Of a DNA stretch of 34,540 nt, positions 28,988 through 34,540 are shown piece after piece (position 1 is the stretch's first letter; every line of letters begins with the position of its first letter). Both the position numbers and the translations under genes were made by a program. Below the pieces are notes generated by a model. It had not been told where the DNA came from. It saw only the letters and a list, made by a program, of their open reading frames with translations, and did not search any database. The stretch covers positions 1 through 34,540 of IMG/VR virus record IMGVR_UViG_3300005612_000017. One strand, written 5' to 3'. The stretch is from a virus. Lineage: Duplodnaviria > Caudoviricetes.

Positions 28988-29040
28988 AAGCCTTCCCAGG
29001 ATGGGCGGGGAGCCAATAACGGCTCCCCCTGGGAAGGCTT
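28988..29040. terminator. Large nested hairpin between the convergent late and early units
   Basis: aagccttcccagg/cctgggaaggctt (13-bp inverted repeat) enclosing ggggagcc-aataac-ggctcccc. Confidence 0.7.
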
Positions 29041-29486: not shown

Positions 29487-29710
29487 GACAGCGCCGCCAC
29501 TGCGCCGACCAGTAAGTAGATCGGGGCAAAGAGCACTGCGCAGATTGTCGCTACCGTCGCCGTCGCACAGAGCGCCCCACAGGGCTGTGATGCCTTCCGC
29601 GGCTTCTCCAGGTAGTCCAGTGGCGGGCGGCTCCGAAGCTTGGCGGTGACGGTTGGGCGGAGCCTGGTGCCGTTGCCATGGAGGATTCGTGATTTTGTAT
29701 AGTCAGTCAT
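29483..29710 (-). CDS. Small membrane protein
   Basis: Hydrophobic C-terminus ATICAVLFAPIYLLVGAVAALS; overlaps neighbours. Confidence 0.55.
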   Translation of the reverse strand: MTDYTKSRILHGNGTRLRPTVTAKLRSRPPLDYLEKPRKASQPCGALCATATVATICAVLFAPIYLLVGAVAALS

Positions 29711-29924
29711 GATTATTTTCTTGGTCCTCTCTATGGAATCGGCATTGGTATGTTCCGAGCGGCAGCTTTCGCAGGACGGCCAGGAGCTTCTTCAGCATTT
29801 CCGCCTCCTCGTTGGAGATCCATGCGCGAAAATCCGTTTTTCCTGCCGCGCGCTGGCGTTTCTTGAATTCCCTTTGACGCTGCGCCCCGTCCTTGGGGCT
29901 GGTGTTGTCTGCTTTCATACCCAT
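29703..29924 (-). CDS. Small DNA-binding protein (RHH-like), candidate Aca regulator
   Basis: AQRQREFKKRQRAAG..DFRAWIS.EE..ML; directly downstream of acr-like genes. Confidence 0.55.
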   Translation of the reverse strand: MGMKADNTSPKDGAQRQREFKKRQRAAGKTDFRAWISNEEAEMLKKLLAVLRKLPLGTYQCRFHREDQENNHD

Positions 29925-29955
29925 TGTGTTATTGACTCCGGTTTGATGGCTTCCC

Positions 29956-30153
29956 TCACCGATCTGTCCATTTGTCGTCTTCTTTTACGCTCAGAACTGC
30001 CCCGTTCTCCGCCTCAATTTTCAGAACCGTCCTCCGGAACATCTGGTTCCGAGATGCGGCGCGTTTTGCCGCACTAAGGTTTTTGGCTTCGATGGACTGT
30101 CCGTCTCGGTGGCTTCGTGCGCTCGGTATTTCGCGGATAATGTAGGTTGACAT
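29956..30153 (-). CDS. acrIF9: Anti-CRISPR AcrIF9 homolog
   Basis: Colinear with AcrIF9 as I recall it: YII.E....S.R.G..IEA..LS.AKR.AS..Q.F..TV..IE..NG..L..KED..W. Confidence 0.85.
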   Translation of the reverse strand: MSTYIIREIPSARSHRDGQSIEAKNLSAAKRAASRNQMFRRTVLKIEAENGAVLSVKEDDKWTDR

Positions 30154-30183
30154 CGCGTCGCTGCTCCGGTTGGTTACTTGCGT

Positions 30184-30213
30184 TGCGCCCCGTCCTTGGG
30201 GCTTTTTGTTTTT
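30184..30213 (+). terminator. Antisense-oriented terminator-like hairpin; its 20-bp core is repeated at 29881-29900
   Basis: tgc-gcccc-gtcctt-ggggc-tttttgttttt. Confidence 0.5.
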
Positions 30214-30219
30214 CCTAAT

Positions 30220-30489
30220 TTATGCCGCTGCTGTTTTTGCCATGTTGTAGAGCGGGTGGCATGGGAGCAATCGGACGGTATCGCTTTCAAAGTAGTCCGT
30301 CATGATGTCGCTTCCATTTTCCACTTTCAGCGCGTTAACCATCTCGGCGGGGAATGCGCTCTTTTTGGGCTGGATTTTGATCAATTCGGGGTTGACACCT
30401 TCAATCCATGGCCCTGTCATGACCCGGATTCCGCAGCGCTTTTTGTTGATTGTCAAAGTTGCCCTTTGGCCTTTTCCGCTGATCTTCAT
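30220..30489 (-). CDS. Uncharacterised 89-aa protein, candidate anti-defence protein
   Basis: Lies between two acr homologs with a near-identical leader; motif VENGSDIMTDYFESD.V...P.HPLY. Confidence 0.75.
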   Translation of the reverse strand: MKISGKGQRATLTINKKRCGIRVMTGPWIEGVNPELIKIQPKKSAFPAEMVNALKVENGSDIMTDYFESDTVRLLPCHPLYNMAKTAAA

Positions 30490-30523
30490 TTGGTTTGCTC
30501 CGGTTGGTGTTTCTCTTAACTTG
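30487..30523 (-). repeat. 37-bp leader repeat, copy B
   Basis: caagttaagagaaacaccaaccggagcaaaccaaatg; 35/37 identical to 30762-30798. Confidence 0.9.
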
Positions 30524-30764
30524 CGCGCATTTCATCTGTTACGGCGACCACATTATTTACCGCGATCCATTCGTGGTCCCCTTCTGTCAGGGGTGCGCCG
30601 TCGCAATCCAGAAAACTGGACTCCCCGCCGGATTCTGCGACTCCGTAAACATCCGAGGCGAATTGGTAGCTGGTCCCGTCATCTTCTCCGTTCAGCTCAA
30701 ACCAGTATGTGGTACTCTCGTTTGCCCAATTATTGTCTTTGCTCATATAGGTTGCGGTGGTCAT
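30516..30764 (-). CDS. acrIF18: Anti-CRISPR AcrIF18-like acidic protein
   Basis: Y.SKD.NW....TTYWF..NGE...GV...G...DCDGAP...T..M.A matches AcrIF18 as I recall it; very acidic. Confidence 0.7.
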   Translation of the reverse strand: MTTATYMSKDNNWANESTTYWFELNGEDDGTSYQFASDVYGVAESGGESSFLDCDGAPLTEGDHEWIAVNNVVAVTDEMRAS

Positions 30765-30798
30765 CTGGCTTGCTCCGGTTGGTGTTTCTCTTAACTTG
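30762..30798 (-). repeat. 37-bp leader repeat, copy A (predicted transcription start to ATG)
   Basis: caagttaagagaaacaccaaccggagcaagccagatg. Confidence 0.9.
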
Positions 30799-30804
30799 GA
30801 TACT

Positions 30805-30832
30805 ATTATACAGTGTTACGCGTAACAGTCAA
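30805..30832 (-). promoter_or_regulatory. Near-consensus sigma70 promoter of the acr operon
   Basis: TTGACT-16 nt-TATAAT on the minus strand. Confidence 0.8.
30814..30827. promoter_or_regulatory. Perfect 14-bp palindromic operator in the promoter spacer
   Basis: TGTTACGCGTAACA. Confidence 0.75.
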
Positions 30833-30835
30833 GCT

Positions 30836-31027
30836 TTATCTTGCCTCCAAGCTCCGGTTGTTCCACAAGTCCATTGCCATTGCTAGCGTGATTTCCACTT
30901 GCCGATTATCTTTCGGTTGCGGCGAGGGGCCAAAAACCCCGCATTGCAGGCATTCTGCATACGGCTCGATTCGGTTCGGTTCGCGTAGCCGATTACTGGC
31001 GCAAAACGGGCAAGGTTTGAGTTTCAT
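30836..31027 (-). CDS. Lar-family restriction alleviation protein
   Basis: LKPCPFCA...CLQCG...AMDLWNNR. Confidence 0.8.
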   Translation of the reverse strand: MKLKPCPFCASNRLREPNRIEPYAECLQCGVFGPSPQPKDNRQVEITLAMAMDLWNNRSLEAR

Positions 31028-33052: not shown

Positions 33053-33898
33053 CTATACCGCCCACCGAGGGAGGCTTAGCGGTTCAATGACATAACAACC
33101 CTCATTCCAATCGTAGCCGTACCCCGGCCAGATCCCCGCCGCTTCGCACTTTGCCCAGATGCTCAATGCGTGTCTGATCGCCACCTCGCCCTTCTGTAGG
33201 TCGTGCTGCGACAGCTCATAGAACGCTGAATCATAAGGCGGTGAGCTTTCCACCACGGCGTGCACAAAGGCTGGCGGTGGCTTCCCGGTAATCAGGGAAT
33301 GCAGGTGCGCATACAGCCACGCCTGGAGATGATAGGAATACCTAGCCGCCGACTTGGCGAATTCAGCCGGCGCAGCTGAAGCGGCAGTTTTTAGATCGAC
33401 AATGACGTTTTGCCCGTCAGGCAGCCAGTCGGCGCGTCCACGGCATAGAACCCCACTGACCGGGTCCACCGCCATCATGGTGACCTCCGCCCTGCCCGCA
33501 CCGAAGATGGCCTCTCCGATTCTTCCCTTACCCGTAAGCACGCTGTCTCTCATGGCTTGCGCTGCGTCATAATCGGCCTGAGAGCAAATCAGCTTCCCAG
33601 CGTTCTCTTTCTCCCACTCGGCGAATGCCGCCTTTCCTGCCTTGGTCCGCCGGTTGATTTTTTCGGGTTCCACGGCGACGTGGTCATCGACAAGTTCGGG
33701 CTGTAAGACAAGCAGGTGTACCAGCGAGCCTAGCGCTTTCGCCGCGCTAGGCTCGTTCTGCGCTTCCCGCATATGCTTGGGGCTGGTCTGCAGAAGCGCC
33801 TTTAGCGCCGTGGACGAAGCCCCCGGCAGCTCAAAATACTGGGCTTCCGGGACTCCCTCTACGAAGCACGGTGTGCGCTGGTCACTGATGATGTTCAT
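33053..33898 (-). CDS. RecE/ExoVIII-like PD-(D/E)XK exonuclease (DUF3799)
   Basis: SSTALK, LGSLVHLLVLQP, CRGRADW, IVDLKT, YHLQAWLY, IWPGY; start at ATG 33898. Confidence 0.9.
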   Translation of the reverse strand: MNIISDQRTPCFVEGVPEAQYFELPGASSTALKALLQTSPKHMREAQNEPSAAKALGSLVHLLVLQPELVDDHVAVEPEKINRRTKAGKAAFAEWEKENAGKLICSQADYDAAQAMRDSVLTGKGRIGEAIFGAGRAEVTMMAVDPVSGVLCRGRADWLPDGQNVIVDLKTAASAAPAEFAKSAARYSYHLQAWLYAHLHSLITGKPPPAFVHAVVESSPPYDSAFYELSQHDLQKGEVAIRHALSIWAKCEAAGIWPGYGYDWNEGCYVIEPLSLPRWAV

Positions 33899-34062
33899 GA
33901 CAGCAGCGCGTTTAAAACAGCTAGGACCCAGAAGGTCCCGCAACCCAGGACGATAGTTAGAGCCAGATAAAACAGAGAGCCTATAAACTCTGCCAGCCCA
34001 CTAATCGGGGGTCTTGGGTGCATCCCAGTCGCCTGGTAATCTCTAATTATTGCTTTGCTCAT
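33895..34062 (-). CDS. 55-aa membrane protein
   Basis: My translation: MSKAIIRDYQATGMHPRPPISGLAEFIGSLFYLALTIVLGCGTFWVLAVLNALLS; ATGA overlaps at both ends. Confidence 0.6.
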   Translation of the reverse strand: MSKAIIRDYQATGMHPRPPISGLAEFIGSLFYLALTIVLGCGTFWVLAVLNALLS

Positions 34063-34304
34063 GACGGATCAGCCTCCTCATATTTGACGATGCAGTAGAT
34101 CGCGAGGCTGTAAGCGTCGGATAGCTGGCGCAGCGCCTTCCGGGCCTCGGCAGGGCGCAGATCGTCCGTGCGGCTAAAGAGTTCTGCTACGGTGCAGCTA
34201 AGCATGAGTTCCTCCTGCTCGTCGCATGCCATCTCCAGGCGCTGATGTTCATCCACCTCGCGCTGATACTCGGCGAGTCCGGGGTGATCTGGTAATTTAT
34301 TCAT
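34059..34304 (-). CDS. Hypothetical 81-aa protein
   Basis: MNKLPDHPGLAEY...; gagg RBS; the Ala/Thr extension in the ORF track is an off-frame reading of the repeat. Confidence 0.6.
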   Translation of the reverse strand: MNKLPDHPGLAEYQREVDEHQRLEMACDEQEELMLSCTVAELFSRTDDLRPAEARKALRQLSDAYSLAIYCIVKYEEADPS

Positions 34305-34540
34305 TTGACGCCTCATGTGGTAGGTCGGCGCTGCCGTAGCCGCTGCCGCTGCCGTAGCCTCTGCCGCTGCCGTTGCCGCTGCCGTTGCCGATGCCGTAGC
34401 CGTAGCCGTAGCCGCTGCCGTAGCCGTCGCCATCGTAGCCGCCGCTGCCGTCGCCGCTGCCGTAGCCGCTGCCATCGTAGCCGCCGCTGCCGCCGTAGCC
34501 GTAGCTGCCGCTGCCGGCGCTGCCGCCGCTGCCGTAGCCG
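34297..34540 (-). CDS. Gly-X (GYGSGDG) repeat protein, C-terminal part (truncated by window edge)
   Basis: GGC alternating with TAC/AGC/GAC/AAC, ending GYGSADLPHEASNE*. Confidence 0.7.
   Translation of the reverse strand, partial: GYGSGGSAGSGSYGYGGSGGYDGSGYGSGDGSGGYDGDGYGSGYGYGYGIGNGSGNGSGRGYGSGSGYGSADLPHEASNE

What the first reader, a model, noticed from the sequence alone, without database searches (positions are those of the whole stretch)
29922..30798. Polarised cassette array: acr genes carry copies of a leader starting at the predicted +1
Seen: a 37-nt leader (CAAGTTAAGAGAAACACCAACCGGAGCAA.CCA.ATG) precedes genes 1 and 2 (35/37 identical). Its 5' edge is 7 nt after TATAAT, at the predicted transcription start, and copy B supplies gene 1's stop codon. 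A shortened copy (CAAGTAACCAACCGGAGCA, within 30151-30180) precedes acrIF9, and only AACCGGAG remains before aca, so similarity decays with distance from the promoter. Inference: new anti-defence genes are added at the promoter-proximal end as leader-plus-ORF units, reminiscent of integron or CRISPR growth but with no integrase seen. The nearby Bet/RecE pair could drive this, and the repeats would also allow precise cassette loss. I know no description of this for acr loci.
Basis: partly seen in the sequence, partly recalled or inferred. Interest (0 to 1): 0.85.

Follow-up and report, generated by a model that had tools for sequence, protein, structure and literature searches.

The report
Stacked anti-CRISPR modules with repeated leaders
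A marine phage carries three small genes, two resembling known anti-CRISPR proteins, behind copies of one gene-leader sequence, and related DNA has the same promoter and leader in front of other genes, so the row likely grew by ordinary recombination joining whole promoter-gene-repressor units that were then trimmed, much like gene shuffling already known in T4-type phages.

Summary
The repeats are real: leaders A and B match 35/37, start 7 nt after TATAAT, and B supplies gene 1's stop. Gene 1 is AcrIF18-like, gene 3 AcrIF9-like, gene 2 unknown; 'aca' fits no known family. Eight other loci carry promoter/operator-leader-cargo-repressor modules with unrelated cargo; one stacks two with the whole promoter repeated, none repeats a promoterless leader. 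So gene content varies (supported), but the unit is likely the whole module, joined by recombination and trimmed at microhomologies, not a polar leader+ORF cassette: acrIF9 is last here and first in the relative, and leader repeats were not enriched at such loci (2/29 versus 6/128 control windows). No 275-bp deletion or circle, integrase or reverse transcriptase was seen. It works like T4-type PeSL shuffling; the scan has noted that principle on other DNA (58 notes). New: a DNA-level account of acr stacking, a likely new repressor-operator family, and untested cargo genes.

The parts
33053..33943 (-). RecE/exonuclease VIII-like gene (candidate partner of Bet; role at this locus untested)
   Evidence: phrog_412 E 7e-73; PF12684
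31030..32064 (-). Bet/RecT-like single-strand annealing protein gene
   Evidence: phrog_252 E 1e-58; PF03837
30836..31027 (-). Lar-like restriction-alleviation gene; its 3' end holds a fifth AACCGGAG (30852-30859) at which a relative joins straight to acrIF9
   Evidence: PF14354 E 1e-9; motif count; joint 30157-30854
30805..30832 (-). Predicted sigma-70 promoter (TTGACT-16-TATAAT)
   Evidence: 11 of 12 consensus bases; conserved in L164, L169, L171, L172, L174, L175
30814..30827 (.). 14-bp palindrome TGTTACGCGTAACA in the promoter spacer; likely operator of the aca-like protein
   Evidence: sequence; a pattern scan for it found an aca-like gene downstream in 6 of 10 non-self hits
30762..30798 (-). 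Leader copy A, 37 nt including ATG, unstructured, begins 7 nt after the -10 box
30516..30764 (-). Gene 1, 82 aa, AcrIF18-like, full family length; last codons overlap leader B
   Evidence: 48-49% over residues 1-58 to L135-L138, whose protein (L135) is nearly identical to AcrIF18* rows of PMC7648647 supplement file 10; homologues end at the same position
30487..30523 (-). Leader copy B (35/37 to A), no promoter of its own, supplies gene 1's TAA
30220..30489 (-). Gene 2, 89 aa, family of unknown function; anti-defence candidate by context only
   Evidence: 9 homologues including itself, 18 loci; no Pfam, NCBIfam or PDB match; weak PHROGs of unknown function
30177..30222 (-). Remnant of the 5' end of an aca-like gene (reads SPKDGAQRK then stop), holding a GC hairpin; ends in the CAAG that starts leader C
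   Evidence: 27/28 to the L164 aca-like gene, E 4e-7; alignments; hairpin
30151..30180 (-). Leader copy C, diverged (13-nt core shared)
29956..30153 (-). Gene 3, 65 aa, AcrIF9 homologue
   Evidence: PDB 6w1x_I E 2e-14
29936..29943 (-). AACCGGAG before the aca-like gene; may be only a ribosome-binding site
29703..29924 (-). Gene 4, 73 aa, aca-like putative repressor of no named family
   Evidence: phrog_536 E 3e-5; UrfF E 3e-7, below cut-off; 5 relatives including itself; low-confidence helix-extended-helix model

Best explanation
This is the variable anti-defence operon of a marine phage, and its repeated leaders are likely the scars left when recombination joined whole promoter-operator-leader-cargo-repressor modules in tandem and deletions at short matching sequences then removed the inner promoters and repressor copy. 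Shown: the repeats, the aca-like remnant before copy C, the same promoter and leader before other ORFs in other DNA, and tandem modules that keep the inner promoter (L174; relative in X7/X8). Inferred: step 1, related phages share promoter/leader and aca-like flanks and swap the cargo between them; step 2, an out-of-register crossover joins the left arm of one parent to the right arm of another, which duplicates the leader by itself; step 3, joins or later deletions at 2-10 nt microhomologies (CAAG at copy C; CA..TAA in register at copy B; AACCGG in the relative) are kept when each ORF stays whole with a ribosome-binding leader under one repressed promoter. Bet/RecE as the catalyst is inferred from proximity and from lambda Red work; untested.
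For: Remnant matches the L164 aca-like gene 27/28 and its own genome's copy less well (26 vs 23 of 28 in register), and overlaps leader C by CAAG. Gene 1 homologue L126 ends GCA GAA TAA where the window reads GCA AGT TAA, so join B falls in the last codons. Runs X7 and X8 hold contigs that overlap by 30 nt and share depth (16.8/13.6/14.6 and 23.1/22/24, against 7.5 and 5 for the window type) in the order lar, acrIF9, aca', promoter, leader, about 222 unknown nt, aca''. Three other ORF starts follow the leader core and three other sequences precede the promoter. Eight distinct other module loci: 5 single-cargo, L174 with a 91-nt, 86% repeat of promoter+operator+leader, L162 and L165 with two cargos; 14 cargos show no pairwise blastp hit at E 0.01. 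L130 shows the same kind of scar: a 35-nt promoter/leader repeat and a 45-nt remnant of a downstream gene's 5' part. No integrase or reverse transcriptase in the 91% complete record; leaders do not fold. Rad52-like phage recombinases act on short and diverged sequences (PMC3945230, passages).
Against: Copies B and C begin at the same base, at the predicted +1; two independent microhomology joins at one base is a coincidence this model only partly explains (B's overlap is just 2 nt plus an in-register TAA; both are preceded by CG, so they may share one origin). No direct parent of either join was found. The relative's gene order is a path through short contigs of one study (P7), and two of the three new ORF starts rest on single records of depth 2.8-3.9. 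L162 and L165 stack two cargos without a leader repeat, so other routes exist. Homology between the window's aca-like protein and those of L169-L175 rests on alignment (27-39%), not on a tblastn hit.
Confidence: 0.7

Rival explanations
1. One reading: leader+ORF cassettes circularise through the leader repeats and re-enter at the promoter-proximal leader, so the array grows from one end and records the order of gain.
For: A and B are 35/37 identical and flank gene 1 exactly; C is more diverged; B and C start at one base near +1. PeSL mini-circles show that such circles can form (PMC2839356, abstract and discussion). Once A and B exist, exchange through them is plausible.
Against: acrIF9 lies upstream of the promoter-bearing module in the relative; the aca remnant is not expected from leader+ORF units; 0 of 8 other module loci repeat a promoterless leader; the gradient rests on three copies and is broken by the upstream copy in lar.
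Confidence: 0.11
2. The repeats are a selected translation-initiation signal (like mycobacteriophage start-associated sequences), copied locally or kept alike by gene conversion so each early gene is translated strongly; they are not join scars.
For: The leader is A-rich and unstructured; the AACCGGAG core holds the Shine-Dalgarno and recurs in unrelated loci; such start-linked repeats are described (PMC3203893, passages). It probably explains the 8-nt copy before aca.
Against: 37-nt near identity exceeds what a ribosome site needs; leaders differ freely among module loci; it does not explain the aca remnant or the replaced last codon of gene 1.
Confidence: 0.12
3. Copies start at +1 because they came from the transcript: a cDNA of leader+gene made by a host reverse transcriptase was annealed into the locus by Bet.
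For: Two inner copies begin at the predicted start site and lack the promoter.
Against: No reverse transcriptase in the record; other loci duplicate the promoter too (L174, L130) or start the repeat well after +1 (L131); CAAG microhomology explains C without RNA.
Confidence: 0.04
4. The tandem leader is an assembly artefact of a mixed phage population.
For: Several variants coexist in these samples and contigs break at the leader.
Against: Identical sequence in three other assembled contigs (L001, L160, L161); single records with 0 differences span A to acrIF9 in X4 (799 nt, 2024) and X6 (1091 nt, 2017); the repeat is only 38 nt.
Confidence: 0.02

Closest known systems
PeSL (promoter-early stem-loop) cassettes of T4-type phages RB49/phi1 (Arbiol et al. 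2010, PMC2839356; abstract, sections 14 and 21 read)
   Same: A conserved sigma-70 promoter-to-start-codon unit precedes unrelated small ORFs; genes are gained, lost and replaced at it without an integrase; upstream stop codons lie at the unit's edge.
   Different: Here a 35-kb phage, one locus, an operator palindrome and a likely repressor gene belong to the unit; inner copies have lost the promoter; the leader has no stem-loop; no mini-circle shown.
acr-aca operons with shuffled, stacked acr genes (Pinilla-Redondo et al. 2020, PMC7648647, passages and supplement rows; Aca review context in PMC12658196, passages)
   Same: Strong promoter with an inverted repeat, 1-3 small variable genes including AcrIF9- and AcrIF18-like, fixed small regulator last.
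   Different: The regulator matches no named family and shows no helix-turn-helix in a low-confidence model; the passages read describe stacking but no leader repeats or join scars.
Establishment-gene regulatory repeats of conjugative plasmids: EGeRS2/Reg576 of p576 (PMC6294495, PMC8708921, passages); CUP elements of pKM101 (seen only as a reference title, content recalled)
   Same: Repeated promoter-operator units ahead of variable anti-defence genes, shut off by one small repressor.
   Different: Plasmid, several dispersed operons with full promoters; here one phage operon with promoterless inner leaders.
Start-associated sequences (SAS/ESAS) of cluster K mycobacteriophages (PMC3203893, passages)
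   Same: Repeat that includes the ribosome-binding site ahead of unrelated small genes.
   Different: SAS is a 13-bp motif at many sites genome-wide with no evidence of being a join; here 37 nt at two adjacent genes.
Integrons and CRISPR arrays (defining features recalled)
   Same: Row of variable units downstream of one promoter.
   Different: No integrase, no folded attC-like site, no evidence of polar order.

Membership tests
PeSL cassettes | sigma-70-like promoter in the repeated unit | tested here: inconclusive
   Met for copies in other DNA (L174, L164, X8/X12); not met for inner copies B and C
PeSL cassettes | stable stem-loop (terminator) within the unit | tested here: not met
   Leaders A and B fold at -1.1 and -2.3 kcal/mol, z +1.0 and +1.9; the GC hairpin belongs to the aca-like coding sequence; the spacer palindrome is read as an operator, untested
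PeSL cassettes | relatives differ by gain, loss or replacement of ORFs at the unit | tested here: met
PeSL cassettes | mini-circles formed between neighbouring units | tested here: inconclusive
   No joint in 4 of 4 runs laid over the region, but only contigs were available, which drop rare forms
PeSL cassettes | many copies in hyperplastic regions of a T4-type genome | tested here: not met
   34.5-kb record with podovirus-like gene set; 2-3 copies at one locus
acr-aca operon | at least one homologue of a validated Acr | tested here: met
   AcrIF9; AcrIF18-like
acr-aca operon | strong promoter overlapped by an inverted repeat | tested here: met
   (by sequence)
acr-aca operon | last gene belongs to a described (helix-turn-helix) Aca family | tested here: not met
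   No Pfam/NCBIfam hit over cut-off, no PDB sequence or fold hit, model without HTH at pLDDT 67; these libraries may lack some Aca families
acr-aca operon | repressor binds the inverted repeat; cargo inhibits CRISPR-Cas | not testable with these tools
   needs binding and plaque assays
Integron | tyrosine integrase beside the array | tested here: not met
   PF00589 absent in 2 of 2 records searched, one 91% complete
Integron | folded single-strand recombination site (attC) per cassette | tested here: not met
   leaders unstructured as RNA; DNA folding not run
Polar (CRISPR-like) array | distal units shared and in the same order among relatives | tested here: not met
   acrIF9 upstream of the promoter module in X7/X8; wholly different cargo in L162

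The most novel reading that the evidence does not exclude
A family of small marine phage modules (GTTACGCGTAAC operator, leader, cargo, new repressor) acts as a Bet-driven anti-defence cassette system in which joins are targeted to the transcription start (through the open promoter or an RNA-derived template), so new acr genes enter at the promoter end and old ones can drop out as 275-bp circles.
Probability: 0.12. Interest if true: 0.8.

Novelty: new variant of a known kind. Interest (0 to 1): 0.47.

Why it matters
Stacked and shuffled acr genes upstream of a fixed aca are well described, but the passages I read do not say how the stacks form. This locus keeps the scars and its relatives show single, tandem and trimmed states, giving a testable route: module duplication by recombination, then trimming. 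The operator+leader pattern is also a cheap marker for anti-defence candidates: it led to a likely new repressor family and 11 unrelated cargo genes without a confident named-family match in Pfam or PHROGs, plus three further ORF starts. The principle itself (shuffling at repeated regulatory DNA) is known from T4-type phages, which caps the interest.

Tried and rejected
Leader 26-mer in viral contigs: 1 hit, an identical copy. 15-mer scan: 119 loci, scan cut at 53 of 64 parts, nearly all chance; 2 of 118 had ATG plus a -10-like box, L062 being a single leader in another small operon without repeats. tblastn of genes 1 and 3 in GenBank phages: none. aca-like alignment in GTDB genomes: 0 of 24 candidates. 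Gene 3 single-query viral scan: only the identical copy and one 15-residue match. Enrichment of start-anchored leader repeats: 2 of 29 test loci (one is the window) against 6 of 128 control windows at score 12 or more; the test missed L130 and L131 because of its ORF rules, and controls hold near-duplicates. 275-bp deletion or circle: no joint in 4 of 4 runs; contigs only, so not evidence of absence. No RNA holder listed. Operator pattern is not specific: 4 of 6 genome hits had no module, two of them ahead of genes I read as HigBA-like (label recalled). Fold of the aca-like protein: two low-confidence models, no Foldseek match; its fold and dimer state stay open. Atlas search for gene 2: no usable hit. 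Literature: 10 searches found no paper describing leader repeats or join scars in acr operons; the library lacks most subscription papers, and supplements other than parts of PMC7648647 were not read. Scan notes by sequence: none alike.

Full report
Setting. The window is a whole virus record, 34,540 bases, linear, about 91% complete, with terminase, portal, capsid, ejection-type proteins, methyltransferases and a Bet/RecE pair. Runs that hold the locus are marine sediment and marine metagenomes (13 rows, 8 studies). The finding lies on the minus strand directly after bet and a lar-like gene.

Observation. Leaders A (30762-30798) and B (30487-30523) are 35/37 identical and 275 apart, far beyond chance. 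A starts at the 7th base after a near-consensus -10 box. B contains gene 1's stop. C keeps a 13-nt core. The 8-mer AACCGGAG occurs five times, all within 924 bases on one strand, one of them upstream of the promoter in the end of lar, which breaks the claimed gradient; it also contains the Shine-Dalgarno and is used before start codons in L131, L164 and L165. The arrangement is not a misassembly: it is identical in three other assembled contigs and single records without differences cross it in X4 and X6.

Genes. Gene 3 is an AcrIF9 homologue (PDB, E 2e-14). Gene 1 aligns at 48-49% over its first 58 residues with L135-L138; the L135 protein is nearly identical to AcrIF18* sequences listed in the supplement of PMC7648647 (compared by eye). 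Gene 2 has relatives but no named family; several relatives sit first behind a promoter, two before small proteins that look HTH-like to me (label is my reading). Gene 4 matches only a generic regulator profile; its models are low-confidence, helix-extended-helix, without a fold match. I call it aca-like from position and from its link with the palindrome: a scan for operator plus -10 box gave 11 hits, 1 self; 6 of the other 10 have a small basic gene of this kind after the cargo, and two loci found through the protein carry the palindrome.

The missed scar. Between gene 2 and leader C lies a 23-nt copy of aca-like coding DNA. It reads SPKDGAQRK and then stops, matches the aca-like gene of L164 at 27/28, better than the window's own copy (26 against 23 of 28 in register), and the bases upstream resemble a decayed start coupled to gene 2's stop (inference). 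Its last four bases, CAAG, are the first four of leader C. So gene 2 probably once had its own repressor gene, and that module was joined to a leader-acrIF9-aca module at a 4-nt microhomology that happens to be the leader's first bases. For copy B, gene 1 has the family's normal length, and its homologue L126 ends GCA GAA TAA where the window has GCA AGT TAA: the join lies in the last two codons with CA and an in-register TAA shared.

Relatives. I laid 7 of the 13 runs, all as contigs. X7 and X8 (one study) hold, beside the window type, a commoner relative. Three records overlap by 30 nt and share depth; read in order they give lar, acrIF9, a 90% aca', about 100 unknown bases, promoter, leader, about 222 unknown bases, a 96% aca'', gene 5. 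The 696 bases between the AACCGG in lar and the end of leader C are replaced by 8 bases. This order is an inferred path. One search shows the leader core followed by three other sequences, each with an ATG 3-6 bases on (depth 24 and 6.1 for one; 3.9 and 2.8 for the others), and promoter matches ending at 30827, 30833 and 30841 with different upstream DNA. A syntenic phage (L162/L163/L167, bet region 75%) has two unrelated cargos and no leader repeat; L164 has the same promoter, operator and leader (93% over 61 nt) before one other ORF in another context; L165 starts at the leader core and has two cargos without a repeat. L169, L171, L172 and L175 carry a sister leader with one cargo each; L174 repeats promoter, operator and leader (91 nt, 86%) before two cargos. 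None of 14 cargos resembles another by blastp. Thus 0 of 8 other module loci show the window's promoterless leader repeat, 1 of 8 repeats the whole promoter.

Generality. Among 24 other loci of gene 1 or gene 2 homologues (8 near-duplicate or self loci left out), 4 have repeats of 14 nt or more at or near start codons (L127, L130, L131, L145, no matched control). In L131 the repeat begins in gene 1's stop but well after +1; L130 repeats a promoter-leader stretch and holds a 45-nt remnant of a downstream gene. A stricter anchored test gave 2 of 29 against 6 of 128 control windows, so leader repeats are not special to acr loci; the best control (L045) has a 31/32 repeat after a cro-like gene (label is my reading).

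Mechanism. Shown: variable cargo between conserved flanks; single, tandem and trimmed states; scars at microhomologies; no integrase or reverse transcriptase (missing 9% not searched); unstructured leaders. Inferred: out-of-register recombination between relatives that share promoter/leader and repressor gene stacks modules, and trimming leaves leader+ORF. One crossover between a left and a right arm duplicates the leader without any circle, and it has no preferred end. Bet/RecE is a plausible catalyst (PMC3945230, passages) but untested. Against this reading: B and C start at the same base near +1, no direct parent of either join was found, the variant evidence comes from one study, and two loci stack cargo without repeats. 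Once A and B exist, loss or exchange of gene 1 through 37 nt of homology is expected; I saw no such joint in 4 of 4 runs, which contigs cannot exclude.

Comparison. It works like PeSL shuffling (PMC2839356; abstract, sections 14 and 21 read) but is not a PeSL: no stem-loop, inner copies without promoter, not T4-type. It is an acr operon of the usual plan; shuffled clusters of 2-4 acr genes stacked before a fixed aca are described (PMC7648647, passages), and a duplicated acr promoter was suggested for Aca11 (PMC12658196, passage). Repeated promoter-operator units before plasmid establishment genes (PMC6294495, PMC8708921, passages) and SAS repeats (PMC3203893, passages) are looser analogues. 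Ten searches found no account of leader repeats or join scars in acr operons. The scan's own notes list 58 findings on repeat-mediated cassette shuffling in other phages; I had searched PeSL before seeing them and did not test them.

Verdict. Observation confirmed; interpretation partly supported. New variant of a known kind; interest 0.47. Best explanation 0.70; the targeted, polar cassette reading 0.12, worth 0.8 if true.

Noticed in passing
window 30154-30859, runs X7/X8/X12: In the commoner relative the lar-like frame appears to run in frame into acrIF9 (12 bases between the shared AACCGG and the ATG), a possible anti-restriction/anti-CRISPR fusion; not all differences in that contig were shown, so an earlier stop is not excluded.
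   Followed up: partly
window 29884-29899; L162, L164, L165: The GC hairpin in codons SPKDGA of the aca-like gene keeps its third-codon bases in 4 of 4 genes and in the remnant, hinting at an RNA or antisense-terminator role.
   Followed up: partly
window 30814-30827; X8 record 16: The relative's operator palindrome is 22 bp with an 18-nt spacer; the window has lost 2 bases (14-bp perfect palindrome, 16-nt spacer).
   Followed up: no
L169, L171, L172, L174, L175, L162, L164, L165: Eleven unrelated small cargo proteins (53-120 aa) in these modules have no confident named-family match (10 scanned; one PHROG of unknown function): anti-defence candidates.
   Followed up: partly
L173 and L178: The same GTTA(C/G)GCGTAAC palindrome and -10 box lie ahead of genes that read like HigBA toxin-antitoxin pairs (label recalled).
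   Followed up: no
L045 200-485: Unrelated phage: a 32-nt leader beginning near the predicted +1 is repeated (31/32) right after the stop of a cro-like gene; may be an operator copy.
   Followed up: partly
L131 3668-3852: Tandem 47-nt repeats (about 4 copies) overlapping the end of a small regulator gene after an AcrIF18-like gene.
   Followed up: no
window about 13087-13128 and 13441-13482: A 42-nt imperfect repeat 354 apart inside the long tail gene.
   Followed up: no
window 34059-34475 minus strand: ORF with a long Ala/Thr low-complexity N-terminus.
   Followed up: no
window 28988-29040: Perfect 13-bp inverted repeat between the converging late and early regions, a likely terminator.
   Followed up: no
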